DNA from: Candidatus Heimdallarchaeota archaeon
Lineage (GTDB): Archaea > Asgardarchaeota > Heimdallarchaeia > JABLTI01
NCBI GenBank assembly: GCA_019056785.1
Contig: DXJV01000005.1
Coordinates: 1-64,000, forward strand
Length of the DNA stretch: 64,000 nt
Reading direction: 5' to 3'
Numbering within the stretch: the first letter of the stretch is position 1; every line of letters starts with the position of its first letter. Position numbers and translations under genes: made by a program. The notes beneath the pieces were generated by a model. That model saw nothing but the letters and a program-made list of their open reading frames with translations. It had not been told where the DNA came from and did no database searches. Positions 11,379 through 14,775 of this stretch are shown here, in pieces.

Positions 11379-11936
11379 ATGGTGAAAAGAATGAGTGAGA
11401 AATCGATTCAAGTAACCAGATTGGTTTTGGTCATTATCTTTAGTGTGGTGATTCTAACAGGAACAGGCGTAGGAATTTGGGTTGGCGTAAGGAACAATAG
11501 CTCAAGTTACCCAAATCCAACATGGTCCTTCAAAGTCAGTGGAAATATTGTTGGTGGAGAAATAAATATCACAATGCAAACCATGCTTTCCCTCCCCTTC
11601 TATGAGCAAGTTTATACTATCAAAGCAAAAACAAACTATGATGCACTCTTTAAAGGAGTACAGCTTTCCTATTTATTCACAGAAGTCATTGATGTTGATC
11701 CCTCCGCAAAGAATGTCACTTTCAGTGCATGGGATGGGTATAGTTGGACATTTAATCTCTCAGAAGTCCTAAACAATGATACGTACATCCTCGCTTACAT
11801 GAAAGAGGGTCAATATTTGACTTCCTATCTTGAAGGTGGTAATGGTTATTTATGGCTCATTGTCCCGGCAAAAAATCCTACGGACTTCAATGGACAACGC
11901 TGTGTTAAAAGTGTCACAGAAATAATCTTTGCGTAA
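11379..11936 (+). CDS. Membrane-anchored molybdopterin-binding (sulfite-oxidase/Oxidored_molyb fold) protein
   Basis: N-terminal TM; WSFKVSG, FKGVQLSYL, AWDGY, ILAYMKEG, GYLWLIVP, CVKSVTEI. Start possibly 11391. Confidence 0.8.
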   Translation: MVKRMSEKSIQVTRLVLVIIFSVVILTGTGVGIWVGVRNNSSSYPNPTWSFKVSGNIVGGEINITMQTMLSLPFYEQVYTIKAKTNYDALFKGVQLSYLFTEVIDVDPSAKNVTFSAWDGYSWTFNLSEVLNNDTYILAYMKEGQYLTSYLEGGNGYLWLIVPAKNPTDFNGQRCVKSVTEIIFA

Positions 11937-11992
11937 GAGGGAAAAACTTTTTCTCTCTTTTCTCTAAATCACAAGAAGGAAGTCGAGGAACG

Positions 11993-12847
11993 ATGGCGTT
12001 TGTACAATCTTCAAGGATGCGTCCTGAGAAAACAATTTTTTCATTGGACCCCCGAACTAAGCTCTTATTCCTGCTCCTTCTTTCCTTCTTACTCTTTATG
12101 ATAAATGATCTTCTATTTATGACCTGCTCTTTTGGTTTTCTTTTTATTATTAGTTTATTGAGCCGAGTTGAGTTGCGAAAATTGTTAAAGTATATCAAAC
12201 CTACGCTTTGGCTCATTCCAACTTTGTTTATTATCCAATTGGCTTTCAGTACTGGAATGGCAACAAATACGATAACCATTTATTCTGATTTTGGTTTCTT
12301 AGCTGACTTTTTGCGATTAAAACGACATTTCATTTTGATAAATAAAGAGTCGTTAATTGTTGCTTCAAATGCTTCATTCAGGATCATTAATTTAGCGATT
12401 ACCTCTTGTTTATTTAGTTTAACAACAAATTCGAATGATTATCTCCAATCCTTGACAAAAATTGGCGTGCCGTTTGAACTTGCCTTTACTACGGGGCTTG
12501 TAATTTATTTTTTGCCGATGGTGGTAACAGAGACAACTGAAACACAAATGGCCTTAGAAGCACGGGGAATAAGCGTAAACTACGGCTCCTTCATTTCCCG
12601 GCTCAAATGCTTCAGAATTCTTGCGGCTGCGATCCTAGTAAATTTCATTGAAAAGTCTCGCTATCAAGCGATTGCTCTTGACTCGAGAGGCTTTAATACA
12701 AAACGAAAACGAACCTTTTATAGAAAGGTCAGGTTTGGACTTGTCGATGCTCTTACAAGTATTGGCATCCTTGCAATAACTGCTGGGATGTGTTATTTTT
12801 ATCGAATAGAAATTGTCCAGTTTTTTGCTGGATTTTGGTTGAAATAA
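11993..12847 (+). CDS. ecfT: ECF transporter T component
   Basis: LDPRTKL, multiple TMs, ALEARG and ALDSRGF (the two XRX motifs). Confidence 0.9.
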   Translation: MAFVQSSRMRPEKTIFSLDPRTKLLFLLLLSFLLFMINDLLFMTCSFGFLFIISLLSRVELRKLLKYIKPTLWLIPTLFIIQLAFSTGMATNTITIYSDFGFLADFLRLKRHFILINKESLIVASNASFRIINLAITSCLFSLTTNSNDYLQSLTKIGVPFELAFTTGLVIYFLPMVVTETTETQMALEARGISVNYGSFISRLKCFRILAAAILVNFIEKSRYQAIALDSRGFNTKRKRTFYRKVRFGLVDALTSIGILAITAGMCYFYRIEIVQFFAGFWLK

Positions 12848-12867
12848 AAATTATGAGGTTAGAAAAA

Positions 12868-13653
12868 ATGACAGCAACGAGATTCATCGGAATTACTGGC
12901 GTGAAAAAAGCCGGCAAAACAACTACCATTGAAGCTCTTGTTCCGAAATTAAGAGAAAAAAATTATCGAGTAGGAACAGTAAAAGTCGCTTTCAAAGAGG
13001 TCAGTGTTGATGTTAACAATGAACATTATGATGTCATCCGCCACCGAAAGAGTGGGCCGGATAAAACGCTCTTCAAATCATCTATTGAAACGGTTTATTT
13101 TGAAAATGAGCCACGAACATTACGGAGAGCACTAAAACAGTTTGGTCAAGAATTAGATGTCGTACTTATAGAGGCCTTTCCCAAGGATTTGATTGGTTTT
13201 CCCCAAATAGCTTTACTAAAAGAACAGGGGCAGGAGGAAAGTGTGACAACAGATTATACTGTTGCCATTTCCTCTATCCCTGAATTTTCAATAAAAAGTA
13301 AAGATCGACGCTATGTTCCCTTCGATGAACTTGCAGAAGTTGTCATTAAAAATGCATTGCCGCTCACGCCAAACCTCAACTGCTACCATTGTGGCTATAG
13401 TAATTGTTATGCCTTTTACAAAGAGGTTACCGCTGGAAGGAGGGAGATAACTGATTGTGATCTTTATGGACAAGAGGGAGCATTCTTTGAATTGACGGTG
13501 AATGGGGAGCCTGTACAATGTAAATTATTTGTTCAAGATGTCATTACTGGGGTGGTTACAGCCATTCTTAAAACATTGAAGATTGAAGAAAAACATCTAA
13601 AAAATGTTGAGCTAAAATTTTCTTTGAAACAAGAGAGTGAGGACCATGAATAA
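12868..13653 (+). CDS. mobB: MobB-like P-loop protein with C-terminal Fe-S domain
   Basis: GVKKAGKTT..L...YRVGTVK, DVVLIE; CxxCGYxxC...C cluster; LTVNG...FVQ tail typical of archaeal MobB. ATG at 12868 with GAGGT RBS. Confidence 0.82.
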   Translation: MTATRFIGITGVKKAGKTTTIEALVPKLREKNYRVGTVKVAFKEVSVDVNNEHYDVIRHRKSGPDKTLFKSSIETVYFENEPRTLRRALKQFGQELDVVLIEAFPKDLIGFPQIALLKEQGQEESVTTDYTVAISSIPEFSIKSKDRRYVPFDELAEVVIKNALPLTPNLNCYHCGYSNCYAFYKEVTAGRREITDCDLYGQEGAFFELTVNGEPVQCKLFVQDVITGVVTAILKTLKIEEKHLKNVELKFSLKQESEDHE

Positions 13654-14170
13654 GAAACATGTTTTAGTACTAGTTATTAGCATTAATGTTTTGTTTGGAT
13701 CTGCCTTGACAACAGTTTATTTCACAGGCTGGGAAAAACTTCAATCAGGCGAAGAAGGCTTTTTAACAGTTACAGGTTTGCCAATCGGTGAGGTGCGTTA
13801 TACCATTGAAGAGTTAATGGCCATGCCAAATATTACTCGTGAATATTTGTTACAAGGAACACCAACTTTCACTGCAAATTATACCGGTGTCTCTGTCTTT
13901 TATTTGCTCACCGAAAAGCTCAATCTAACTGAGGGGAGCACCCGTGTGAAGGTCGTTGCTGTTGATAATTACTCTTATACATTAACATTAGTAGAATGTA
14001 ATGCTACTCGTGACATCATCCTTGCCTACCTGCGGAATGGTGAACGCCTTAAAAGTGGCGCAAAAGGTGGGAATGGCCCTCTGCGACTCGTCATTCCTCA
14101 AAGATTTTCGGGAGAATACAATGGTCAATATTGTATAAAGTATGTTACAACTTTAAAAATTTTAAATTGA
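13646..14170 (+). CDS. Second membrane-anchored molybdopterin-binding (Oxidored_molyb fold) protein
   Basis: N-terminal TM; YTGVSVFYLL, AVDNY, ILAYLRNG, GPLRLVIP, CIKYV; paralogue of 11379-11936. Confidence 0.8.
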   Translation: MNKKHVLVLVISINVLFGSALTTVYFTGWEKLQSGEEGFLTVTGLPIGEVRYTIEELMAMPNITREYLLQGTPTFTANYTGVSVFYLLTEKLNLTEGSTRVKVVAVDNYSYTLTLVECNATRDIILAYLRNGERLKSGAKGGNGPLRLVIPQRFSGEYNGQYCIKYVTTLKILN

Positions 14171-14193
14171 AAGAAATTTGAGGTTGGTTATTA

Positions 14194-14775
14194 TTGAAAC
14201 GATTTAGTACGACTGACTTAATAATAATTGCAGTAATGGCTGCTCTCGGTTTAGGAACCAAGCAAATTGTTCGTCCAATTGTTTCTTTAATAACAGTTCC
14301 ATTAGCAATTCCTGGCGGAGCAATTGCTGGTGGTTTTTATTTTATCTGGTTAGTGCTCACCAAAAGGCTTTCACCTAAGTTCGGTTCCGGGATAATGTTT
14401 GGGATTACCCAAGCACTGGTGGTGATGATCCTCCCCTTTGGCTCGCATGGCATATTTACTCTTATCATTTATCCACTTCCAGGCATAATTGTGGACCTTA
14501 TTGACCTTCTTTTTAGAAGGCAGAACCAAACCCTTGTATGCTCGATAACAGAAGGGGCAATTGCAAATTTCACTGGTAATTTGTTAGTGTTACTTTTTAT
14601 CTTTCAATTAGAACTACTCCCTACAATTTTCGTCTCTCTCTTAGCATTATTTACCGGAAATCTTGGTGGAATTTTGGCTCATTATATCAGTAAAAGGGTT
14701 TCGAAGGAACTCTCGTTAACTACCTTCGAAGAAAAGGATTCCTCTCTTGAAAAAGATGAACCTTTAACAGCTTGA
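14194..14775 (+). CDS. ECF transporter S (substrate-specificity) component
   Basis: ~190 aa, about 6 TM, DLIIIAVMAALG (AxxxA) in helix 1, GSG and PG motifs; in the same operon as EcfT. Confidence 0.8.
   Translation: MKRFSTTDLIIIAVMAALGLGTKQIVRPIVSLITVPLAIPGGAIAGGFYFIWLVLTKRLSPKFGSGIMFGITQALVVMILPFGSHGIFTLIIYPLPGIIVDLIDLLFRRQNQTLVCSITEGAIANFTGNLLVLLFIFQLELLPTIFVSLLALFTGNLGGILAHYISKRVSKELSLTTFEEKDSSLEKDEPLTA

What the first reader, a model, noticed from the sequence alone, without database searches (positions are those of the whole stretch)
11379..14775. Putative ECF-type molybdenum/tungsten cofactor salvage system
Seen: a five-gene operon with two membrane-anchored sulfite-oxidase-fold proteins, EcfT, MobB-FeS and an ECF S component. 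Both SO-fold proteins lack the N-proximal Mo-ligating Cys of SO/MsrP enzymes but share a C-terminal C-[VI]-K motif, and there is no MsrQ or cytochrome partner. Known: ECF systems import vitamins and cofactors, and MobB acts in Mo/W-bis-PGD maturation. Inference: extracytoplasmic non-catalytic pterin-capture proteins feed an ECF importer of molybdopterin/Moco/Wco. I know of no characterised prokaryotic Moco importer.
Basis: partly seen in the sequence, partly recalled or inferred. Interest (0 to 1): 0.78.

Follow-up and report, generated by a model that had tools for sequence, protein, structure and literature searches.

The report
ECF importer for molybdopterin-type cofactor
A Heimdall-group Asgard archaeon that has tungsten enzymes but none of the genes for making their pterin cofactor carries a vitamin-type (ECF) membrane importer joined to two outward-facing pterin-binding proteins and a MobB cofactor-handling protein, which makes this the best candidate for a so far undescribed prokaryotic system that scavenges the molybdenum/tungsten cofactor from outside the cell.

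Summary
The five genes are real and as described: SO-fold protein, EcfT, MobB+FeS, SO-fold protein, PF09819 S component. The SO-fold proteins are membrane-anchored, lack the Mo-ligand Cys hairpin, and are closest in sequence profile and predicted fold to PruR, a solved non-catalytic periplasmic pterin-binding protein. The ATPases are missing from the cluster, but an EcfA-EcfA'-EcfT module lies 6.6 kb downstream. The S component always travels with such SO-fold proteins (78 of 80 loci in Heimdall archaea, Cloacimonadota and Clostridia) and is fused to one in other Heimdall genomes. In 13 of 20 bacterial loci the operon sits behind a Moco/Tuco riboswitch. The window's genome has four AOR genes and FwdB, but I found no MoaA, MoaC, MoaE, MoeA, MogA/MoaB or ModA/WtpA. 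Across 83 genomes of the class, a PruR-like/ECF marker occurs in 55 of 62 genomes lacking MoaC and MoeA (all 62 have AOR) and in 0 of 21 that have them. The exact substrate (metal-loaded cofactor, molybdopterin or a smaller pterin) is inferred, not shown. This scan reached the same reading on other genomes before. I found no published description.

The parts
11321..11327 (+). TATA-like box (TTTATAA) of the operon promoter
   Evidence: Read directly from the sequence. T-rich TATA-like boxes stand at the same place in 10 orthologous promoters. Promoter function is inferred.
11328..11351 (+). Conserved 24-nt inverted-repeat operator, CGAnnTRT-n9-CATAWCG, directly after the TATA box; regulator unknown
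   Evidence: Present at the same position in all 11 family-f1 promoters compared. It is the only exact match in the 2.87 Mb genome. The three differences in a 99.5%-identical strain fall only at unspecified positions. No TOBE-domain (ModE-type) protein was found above cut-off in 12 f1 genomes.
11379..11936 (+). SO1: membrane-anchored, Cys-hairpin-less SUOX-fold (PruR-like) protein, 185 aa; proposed outward-facing pterin-capture protein
   Evidence: PF00174 35.3 bits. About 31% identical to SO2. Member of alignment A2, whose profile hits PruR 7KOM at E 5.5e-13. Orthologues lie in the cluster or elsewhere in all f1 genomes.
11993..12847 (+). Dedicated EcfT (CbiQ family) scaffold subunit, 284 aa, with both Arg-Gly coupling motifs (EARG, DSRG)
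   Evidence: PF02361 81.6 bits. Motifs read from the translation. Orthologous in all f1 loci.
12853..13653 (+). MobB P-loop protein (Walker A GVKKAGKT) fused to a four-Cys FeS domain, 266 aa; proposed cytoplasmic receiver or chaperone of the imported cofactor
   Evidence: PF03205 68.8 bits and PF04060 34.7 bits. TIGR00176 77.2 bits vs cut-off 76.2. MobB lies in 37 of 80 loci of this system, including bacterial ones. The role is inferred.
13637..14170 (+). SO2: second membrane-anchored PruR-like SUOX-fold protein, 177 aa
   Evidence: PF00174 38.6 bits. AlphaFold2 model pLDDT 92.3. Best Foldseek matches are PruR 7KOM (TM by target 0.84), 7KP2 and 7KOS. An orthologue lies beside S in 12 of 12 f1 genomes.
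14194..14775 (+). ECF S component of the PF09819 (YkoE-like) family, 193 aa; proposed substrate-binding membrane subunit
   Evidence: PF09819 43.3 bits. 75 close homologues and 345 loci in reference genomes. In other Heimdall families it is fused to a C-terminal SO-fold domain (hhalign 97.7% and 98.4%).
21376..23953 (-). EcfA (23063-23953), EcfA' (22218-23066) and a second EcfT (21376-22221): the energising module presumed to supply the ATPases
   Evidence: ABC_tran 91.8 and 117.9 bits, CbiQ 86.9 bits. These are the only other EcfT and among the best EcfA-like hits in the genome. A second EcfT stands at the same downstream place in f1 relatives. Use by this cluster is inferred.

Best explanation
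The cluster encodes the substrate-specific half of an ECF-type importer for a molybdopterin-type pterin cofactor: the tungsten/molybdenum cofactor itself or its immediate pterin form. Proposed mechanism: SO1 and SO2, anchored by one helix on the outer face of the membrane, bind the pterin ring of cofactor released by other organisms, as PruR binds pterins. They pass it to the S component. The S component docks on the dedicated EcfT and is driven by the EcfA/EcfA' pair encoded 6.6 kb away. Inside the cell, MobB-FeS receives or escorts the labile cofactor to the apo-enzymes (four AORs and FwdB). The genome has no MPT synthesis, no MoeA or MogA, and no known molybdate/tungstate binding protein, so in this organism the imported species probably already carries its metal. 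A conserved operator over the transcription start would give the control that a Moco/Tuco riboswitch gives in bacterial versions. Shown: the gene content, the PruR-like fold, the conserved linkage and fusion, riboswitch control in bacterial homologues, and the biosynthesis-minus/enzyme-plus pattern. Inferred: the ligand, the hand-over, the ATPase sharing and the MobB role.
For: (1) Fold. The profile of the small SO-fold family hits PruR 7KOM at E 5.5e-13, ahead of sulfite dehydrogenases. The SO2 model (pLDDT 92) matches PruR structures best. PruR's pterin-contacting N-x-Y aligns with the invariant D110 and Y/F112 (PMC11194511). (2) Linkage. SO-fold genes lie in 78/80 loci of this S family, EcfT in 62, EcfA in 60, MobB in 37. 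S and the SO-fold domain are fused in Heimdall genomes G056 and G001. (3) Regulation. The Moco/Tuco riboswitch RF01055 lies upstream on the same strand in 13/20 bacterial loci, in both P3-containing and P3-less forms, and no TPP riboswitch was found. (4) Need, own genome. No MoaA, MoaC, MoaE or MoeA_N. The only MoCF_biosynth hit is CinA-like, the only PBP_like_2 hit is PstS, and there is no SBP_bac_11 hit. Four AOR genes and FwdB are present. (5) Need, class-wide. AFOR_N is in 79/83 genomes, MoaC in 20 and MoeA in 21, the same genomes except one 63%-complete MAG (G041) that has MoeA but no MoaC hit. S or PruR-like markers are in 55/62 biosynthesis-minus genomes and 0/21 biosynthesis-plus genomes. 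Within genus g16, the two biosynthesis-plus genomes are the ones without the system. (6) Bacteria. 26 of 50 carriers lack both MoaC and MoeA, and 23 of these have AOR, including a closed Cloacimonadales chromosome. (7) Accessory genes fit a bulky organic phosphate-bearing substrate: a TonB-dependent receptor in 12 loci, purple-acid/calcineurin-type phosphoesterases, and NPP-type pyrophosphatase fusions to the SO-fold domain.
Against: No binding or transport has been measured. The region that carries the Cys hairpin in SUOX enzymes is short, as in PruR: 16 profile positions against 34 residues in SorA. The PruR authors argue that such a pocket takes small pterins and probably not whole Moco (PMC11194511, PMC13259868). 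About half of bacterial carriers make their own cofactor, so the system is not only a substitute for synthesis. A riboswitch would equally fit a metal transporter. Seven biosynthesis-minus genomes in the class show neither marker, and family f3 uses a different transporter next to its PruR-like protein. There are no ATPase genes in the cluster. MobB's function is poorly defined even in E. coli. Moco is very oxygen-labile, which limits an extracellular pool to anoxic settings (established knowledge). The window's genome is 82.5% complete.
Confidence: 0.62

Rival explanations
1. It imports a smaller, non-molybdopterin pterin, or a stable Moco breakdown or precursor pterin. The PruR-like proteins would act as in PruR, binding only small pterins, for salvage into another pathway or for sensing.
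For: The binding hairpin is as short as in PruR. PruR binds monapterin and neopterin, and its authors doubt it can take Moco (PMC11194511). GGDEF and HD-GYP genes lie a few genes upstream in 4-5 Cloacimonadota loci, reminiscent of PruR-DcpA.
Against: Riboswitch RF01055 senses Moco/Tuco, not free pterins (PMC2408646). MobB is linked in 37/80 loci. The system tracks loss of MoaC and MoeA, not folate genes. A precursor such as cPMP would still need MoaD/E and MoeA, which this genome lacks.
Confidence: 0.13
2. It is an ECF-type tungstate/molybdate importer, and the SO-fold proteins bind the oxyanion.
For: Moco/Tuco riboswitches commonly control modABC- and tup-type metal transporters (PMC2408646). 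ECF systems for metals exist (CbiMNQO, NikMNQO; established knowledge). The window's genome shows no ModA/WtpA or TupA, so a metal route would otherwise be missing.
Against: In this genome and 61 others of the class there is no MoaC and no MoeA to make or load molybdopterin, so the oxyanion alone could not activate the AORs. The capture proteins have a pterin-binding fold with the pterin-contact D/N-x-Y kept. TonB-dependent receptors and phosphoesterases suggest an organic substrate.
Confidence: 0.1
3. SO1 and SO2 are real extracytoplasmic Mo/W oxidoreductases. The ECF-like proteins plus MobB export or insert cofactor into them outside the cell.
For: Pfam places them in Oxidored_molyb. Some bacterial relatives are fused to flavinylation-type FMN_bind domains, which suggests redox chemistry at the surface.
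Against: No Mo-ligand Cys and no extended hairpin. No Tat signal. No cofactor synthesis in the cell to export. Tandem arrays of 4-5 such domains and fusions to S-layer proteins look like binding modules. ECF systems are importers (established knowledge).
Confidence: 0.04
4. It is a thiamine/HMP importer like YkoEDC, since the S component belongs to PF09819.
For: PF09819 hit at 43.3 bits. Some sources name homologues 'thiamin/hydroxymethylpyrimidine transport permease'.
Against: No TPP riboswitch in 20 bacterial loci, while 13 carry Moco/Tuco riboswitches. No thiamine genes in 80 neighbourhoods. The S-family profile does not reach YkoE or any other PDB chain at E 0.01.
Confidence: 0.03

Closest known systems
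PruR periplasmic pterin-binding proteins (Agrobacterium tumefaciens Atu3496 and Vibrio/Klebsiella homologues; PDB 7KOS, 7KOU, 7KOM, 7KP2, 7RKB; PMC11194511)
   Same: Small, exported, single-domain SUOX fold without the Mo-ligand Cys hairpin. Best sequence-profile and fold match. The pterin-contacting N/D-x-Y is conserved.
   Different: PruR partners with the c-di-GMP enzyme DcpA and signals. Here the partner is an ECF S component, even fused to it in relatives, with MobB. PruR's PW motif is absent. In SO1/SO2 a Cys stands where, by my unverified alignment, PruR's pterin-stacking Trp would lie. The proteins are membrane-anchored in an archaeon.
YkoEDC and other ECF vitamin importers (RibU, ThiT, FolT, BioY, QrtT with EcfAA'T)
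   Same: S component of the same Pfam family as YkoE. EcfT has both Arg-Gly coupling motifs. Riboswitch control by the end-product cofactor in bacterial versions. S components share an EcfAA' module.
   Different: ECF importers are defined as working without extracytoplasmic binding proteins; this one always has one to several. It has its own EcfT but no ATPases in the cluster, a new regulon (Moco/Tuco) and a MobB partner.
SUOX-family enzymes (sulfite oxidase, SorA, YedY/MsrP)
   Same: Homologous Moco-binding fold (Foldseek probability 1.0, TM by query about 0.6).
   Different: No Mo-ligand Cys, truncated hairpin, no dimerisation or haem domain, no MsrQ, no Tat signal. Predicted non-catalytic.
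MobB of E. coli and the archaeal MobB/FeS proteins (PRK14494 models)
   Same: P-loop MobB domain above the TIGR00176 cut-off, with a C-terminal four-Cys FeS domain as in the archaeal MobB/FeS models.
   Different: Encoded inside a transporter operon in a genome without moa, moeA or a clear mobA. Only a weak MobA-like domain (55 bits vs cut-off 164) was found, in a 674-aa protein.
Dietary Moco uptake by Caenorhabditis elegans
   Same: An organism obtains ready-made Moco from other organisms.
   Different: That is a eukaryote with an unknown uptake route. No prokaryotic counterpart turned up in my literature searches.

Membership tests
ECF transporter | Small integral-membrane S component | tested here: met
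   PF09819 43.3 bits vs cut-off 25.2; hydrophobic throughout.
ECF transporter | EcfT (CbiQ family) with two conserved Arg-Gly coupling-helix motifs | tested here: met
   PF02361 81.6 bits; EARG and DSRG read in the translation.
ECF transporter | EcfA/EcfA' ATPase pair | tested here: inconclusive
   None in the cluster. A pair with a second EcfT lies at 21376-23953. Bacterial and other Heimdall versions have them in the operon.
ECF transporter | Works without extracytoplasmic solute-binding proteins | tested here: not met
   PruR-like exported proteins lie in 78/80 loci and are fused to S in relatives. This makes it a variant rather than a typical member.
PruR-type pterin-binding proteins | Small exported SUOX fold with truncated hairpin lacking the Mo-ligand Cys | tested here: met
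PruR-type pterin-binding proteins | Pterin sandwich residues (Asn-x-Tyr and a C-terminal Trp) and the PW motif | tested here: inconclusive
   D110-x-Y112 aligns with N-x-Y of 7KOM. Position 166, which I take to be the Trp position, is W in 27/64 relatives but Cys in SO1 and SO2. No PW motif.
PruR-type pterin-binding proteins | Operon with a DcpA-type GGDEF-EAL protein | tested here: not met
   No such gene in the window cluster.
SUOX molybdoenzymes | Conserved Mo-ligating cysteine on an extended beta-hairpin | tested here: not met
   No Cys in that region of SO1, SO2 or the family. The hairpin region has 16 profile positions against 34 residues in SorA.
MobB | P-loop GTP-binding domain scoring above the curated family cut-off | tested here: met
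   TIGR00176 77.2 vs 76.2 bits; Walker A GVKKAGKT.
MobB | Acts with MobA in MGD synthesis | tested here: inconclusive
   Only a weak MobA-like N-terminal domain was found in a 674-aa protein (55 bits vs cut-off 164).
YkoE thiamine/HMP S component | TPP-riboswitch control and thiamine-gene context | tested here: not met
   No TPP riboswitch in 20 bacterial loci; 13 have RF01055.
Moco/Tuco regulon | Moco/Tuco riboswitch upstream of the operon | tested here: met
   Met for bacterial homologues (13/20 loci). The window itself has no Rfam match and carries a conserved operator instead.

The most novel reading that the evidence does not exclude
Most Heimdall-class Asgard archaea, like Cloacimonadota and some Clostridia, are obligate auxotrophs for the tungsten/molybdenum cofactor. 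They import it intact and metal-loaded from neighbours through an ECF importer armed with PruR-like capture proteins, with MobB-FeS as the intracellular receiver. The pterin cofactor would then be a traded 'vitamin' in anoxic communities.
Probability: 0.4. Interest if true: 0.9.

Novelty: new variant of a known kind. Interest (0 to 1): 0.8.

Why it matters
Textbooks treat Moco/Tuco as too unstable to be shared, so every prokaryote with Mo or W enzymes is expected to make it. In this class, 62 of 83 genomes, two of them single-contig assemblies, keep multiple tungsten-type AOR genes but have no MoaC or MoeA. The same pattern holds in 23 bacterial carriers. If this system imports the cofactor, it would be the first prokaryotic Moco/Tuco transporter. 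It would add a cofactor to the list of exchanged vitamins, help explain why these anaerobes, including close archaeal relatives of eukaryotes, depend on partners and resist pure culture, and suggest a medium supplement. It would also be the first ECF importer that uses extracytoplasmic binding proteins, and it would give MobB a testable role.

Tried and rejected
(1) The search for related loci with the single S protein found nothing; an alignment was needed. (2) phmmer of SO1 or SO2 alone against PDB gave no real hit; the family profile did. (3) The S-family profile against PDB gave no hit at E 0.01. (4) complex prediction of S with the SO2 ectodomain returned no verdict (score 0.00, controls not run). 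(5) No RNA holder was listed for the stretch, so expression could not be examined. (6) The class-wide PF13531 search was uninformative outside f1 (0/12) and genus g7 (strong hits), because other hits are weak and look like unrelated binding proteins. (7) A canonical ModE regulator is rejected for the operator: no TOBE domain above cut-off in 12 f1 genomes. (8) No Rfam family matches in the window. (9) I first guessed that A108 replaces the Mo-ligand Cys. The alignment to PruR and SorA shows that motif is the pterin-contact N/D-x-Y instead. (10) Single-linkage clustering merged FMN_bind proteins with SO-fold proteins through four fusion proteins; I separated them with jackhmmer.

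
Full report
WHAT IS THERE. The window comes from a Heimdall-group Asgard MAG. Arf and Ras GTPase genes flank the cluster, and close relatives are titled Heimdallarchaeota. The genome is 2.87 Mb in 102 contigs and 82.5% complete.

Five + strand genes lie between 11379 and 14775:
- SO1 (185 aa): PF00174, 35 bits.
- EcfT (284 aa): CbiQ, 82 bits, with the two coupling motifs EARG and DSRG.
- MobB fused to a four-Cys FeS domain. The true start is most likely the ATG at 12853, giving 266 aa. 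TIGR00176 scores 77.2 against a cut-off of 76.2.
- SO2 (177 aa): PF00174, 39 bits.
- An S component of family PF09819 (193 aa): 43 bits.

Gaps and overlaps are small (56 nt, 5 nt, a 17-nt overlap, 23 nt), which fits one operon. Independent metagenome contigs from other studies bridge the genes. There is no ATPase in the cluster. A standard EcfA-EcfA'-EcfT module lies at 21376-23953 on the other strand, and a second EcfT stands at the same relative place in relatives.

THE SO-FOLD PROTEINS ARE PruR-LIKE. An exhaustive search with SO2 found 169 clusters of relatives. Most are 165-190 aa with one N-terminal helix. Others are tandem arrays of 4-5 domains, parts of giant S-layer-homology proteins, or fusions to NPP-type nucleotide pyrophosphatases. 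These are architectures of a binding module rather than an enzyme.

A profile of 50 small members hits the Vibrio vulnificus PruR structure 7KOM best (E 5.5e-13), then sulfite dehydrogenases and the other PruR entries. The AlphaFold2 model of SO2 (pLDDT 92.3) matches 7KOM, 7KP2 and 7KOS ahead of the enzymes.

PruR is a periplasmic, non-catalytic pterin-binding protein with a 'truncated MoCo-binding site' (PMC11194511). In the family here the hairpin that bears the Mo-ligand Cys in enzymes is equally short and has no Cys. PruR's pterin-contacting N-x-Y aligns with an invariant Asp and a Tyr/Phe.

THE LINKAGE IS CONSERVED ACROSS DOMAINS. An alignment of S homologues recovered 345 loci in reference genomes, of which the best 80 were kept: Heimdall archaea, Cloacimonadota and many Clostridia. 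I called ORFs in these 80 loci and labelled them with phmmer and jackhmmer. Counts by locus:
- SO-fold proteins: 78 loci, usually two or more per locus.
- EcfT: 62.
- EcfA: 60.
- MobB: 37.
- A small kinase-like protein: 20.
- A TonB-dependent receptor: 12 (Cloacimonadota).
- Purple-acid-type phosphoesterases: 7.
- FMN_bind proteins: 14, four of them fused to the SO-fold domain.

In Heimdall families f2 and f6 the S component is a 377-aa protein whose last 120 residues are an SO-fold domain (hhalign 98.4% and 97.7%). There it lies in the operon SO-fold, S-SO fusion, EcfAA', EcfT, and in G001 a calcineurin-type phosphoesterase follows. Such a fusion argues for direct cooperation of the two parts.

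REGULATION POINTS TO THE Mo/W COFACTOR. In 13 of 20 bacterial loci scanned, the Rfam Moco/Tuco riboswitch RF01055 lies upstream on the operon strand (40-97 bits, gathering score 36). Both the P3-containing form (L104) and the P3-less form (L100) occur. Regulski et al. associate the P3-less form with the tungsten cofactor (PMC2408646). No TPP riboswitch was found.

The window has no Rfam match. Directly after its TATA-like box stands a 24-nt inverted repeat, CGAnnTRT-n9-CATAWCG. It is present at the same place in all 11 orthologous promoters of family f1 and is unique in the genome. In a 99.5%-identical strain the three changes hit only its unspecified positions. From memory it resembles ModE operators, but no TOBE-domain protein was found in 12 f1 genomes, so the regulator is unknown.

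THE ORGANISM NEEDS THE COFACTOR AND CANNOT MAKE IT. The window's genome has four AOR-family genes and formylmethanofuran dehydrogenase subunit B (TIGR03129, 574 bits). I found no MoaA C-terminal domain, MoaC, MoaE or MoeA_N. Its only MoCF_biosynth protein is CinA-like, its only PBP_like_2 protein is PstS, and there is no SBP_bac_11 hit. MobB in this cluster is the only clear cofactor-pathway gene. A weak MobA-like domain sits in a 674-aa protein.

Incompleteness does not explain this. Across the 83 genomes of the class:
- AFOR_N is in 79.
- MoaC is in 20 and MoeA_N in 21, the same genomes but for G041, a 63%-complete MAG with MoeA and no MoaC hit.
- All 62 genomes without MoaC and MoeA have AOR hits, among them the single-contig assemblies G056 (70% complete by marker count) and G058 (96%).

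The S component or the f3-type PruR-like protein is found in 55 of these 62 genomes and in none of the 21 biosynthesis-plus genomes. Three contrasts agree: genus g7 within f3; G061 and G062 within genus g16; and f1/f2 against f4, f5 and f7. Related genomes are not independent, so I give no P-value.

Among 50 bacterial carriers, 26 lack both MoaC and MoeA, and 23 of those have AOR. One is a closed 4.4-Mb Cloacimonadales chromosome whose operon has the riboswitch (L066).

INTERPRETATION. A metal-only transporter cannot serve organisms with no molybdopterin synthesis and no MoeA. A thiamine-type role is contradicted by the regulation. An enzymatic role for SO1 and SO2 is contradicted by the missing Cys and the missing cofactor supply.

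The best reading is an ECF importer of a molybdopterin-type cofactor with outward-facing pterin-capture proteins and MobB as the intracellular partner.

The weakest point is the ligand. The PruR-like short pocket may hold only the pterin ring. About half of the bacterial carriers also synthesise the cofactor. The accessory phosphoesterases and kinase-like gene of bacterial operons suggest that a dephosphorylated or de-nucleotidylated pterin form might be what crosses the membrane there. For this archaeon, which lacks MoeA, MogA and MPT synthase, a metal-loaded form is the most economical assumption.

PRIOR KNOWLEDGE. Full-text searches for a prokaryotic Moco/Tuco importer, for ECF plus Moco, and for Moco auxotrophy with AOR found nothing relevant. 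A 2013 survey of riboswitch regulons lists no Moco transporter among its coenzyme uptake categories (PMC3766115). A 2026 review of bacterial pterin signalling states that how pterins cross membranes is unknown (PMC13259868).

The scan's own notes show that the same system was reported at least eight times on other genomes with the same reading. I had reached the PruR and riboswitch results before reading those notes. This window adds four things: the reduced archaeal form (own EcfT, no ATPases), the conserved operator, the class-wide complementarity with cofactor biosynthesis, and a second, ABC-type partner for PruR-like proteins in family f3.

Noticed in passing
window 11328-11351, and the same place in L048-L058: A 24-nt inverted repeat, CGAnnTRT-n9-CATAWCG, lies directly after the TATA-like box. 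It is conserved in all 11 family-f1 promoters of this operon and unique in the window's genome. It looks ModE-like, but no TOBE-domain protein was found in 12 f1 genomes, so the regulator is unknown.
   Followed up: partly
L040 3012-7932 (G011:C185); also L041, L042, L128-L133: Heimdall family f3 lacks MoaC and MoeA, has AOR and has no S component. It carries a 339-aa double PruR-like protein that always sits next to two ABC_membrane+ABC_tran half-transporters (9 of 9 genomes inspected). This may be a second, exporter-fold transporter type for the same substrate. The protein is absent from the two f3 genomes that have the biosynthesis genes.
   Followed up: partly
83 genomes of the class (G000-G082): 62 of 83 genomes lack both MoaC and MoeA, yet all 62 carry AOR-family genes, mostly 3-13 per genome. 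This points to widespread tungsten/molybdenum-cofactor auxotrophy in Heimdall-class Asgard archaea.
   Followed up: yes
L036 7333-8466 (-) and L039 6287-7420 (-): 377-aa natural fusions of the PF09819 S component with a C-terminal PruR-like domain. They lie in complete ECF operons, and in G001 a 529-aa calcineurin-type phosphoesterase follows.
   Followed up: yes
P0100, P0110, P0111, P0124; P0084, P0092; P0076; L104 4403-5416, L115 3599-5188: The PruR-like domain also occurs fused to NPP-type nucleotide pyrophosphatases, inside 1750-2250-aa S-layer-homology proteins, as 4-5 tandem copies, and fused to flavinylation-type FMN_bind domains. The FMN_bind fusions hint at redox handling of the bound ligand outside the cell.
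   Followed up: partly
window 14764-16353 (-): A 529-aa Amidohydro_3 protein converges on the S gene and overlaps it by 12 nt. The pairing is kept in all f1 loci. Any functional link to the transporter is unknown.
   Followed up: no
bacterial loci such as L079 10911-11579, L100 and L114: A 210-250-aa protein with weak RIO/APH kinase similarity follows MobB in 20 bacterial operons. It is absent from the archaeal cluster. It might re-phosphorylate an imported dephospho-pterin.
   Followed up: no
G000:C57:32942-34963 (-) (L134 4-2025): A 674-aa protein has a weak N-terminal MobA-like nucleotidyltransferase domain (55 bits, cut-off 164) and a phosphohydrolase-like region. It is the only MobA candidate in a genome that encodes FwdB.
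   Followed up: no
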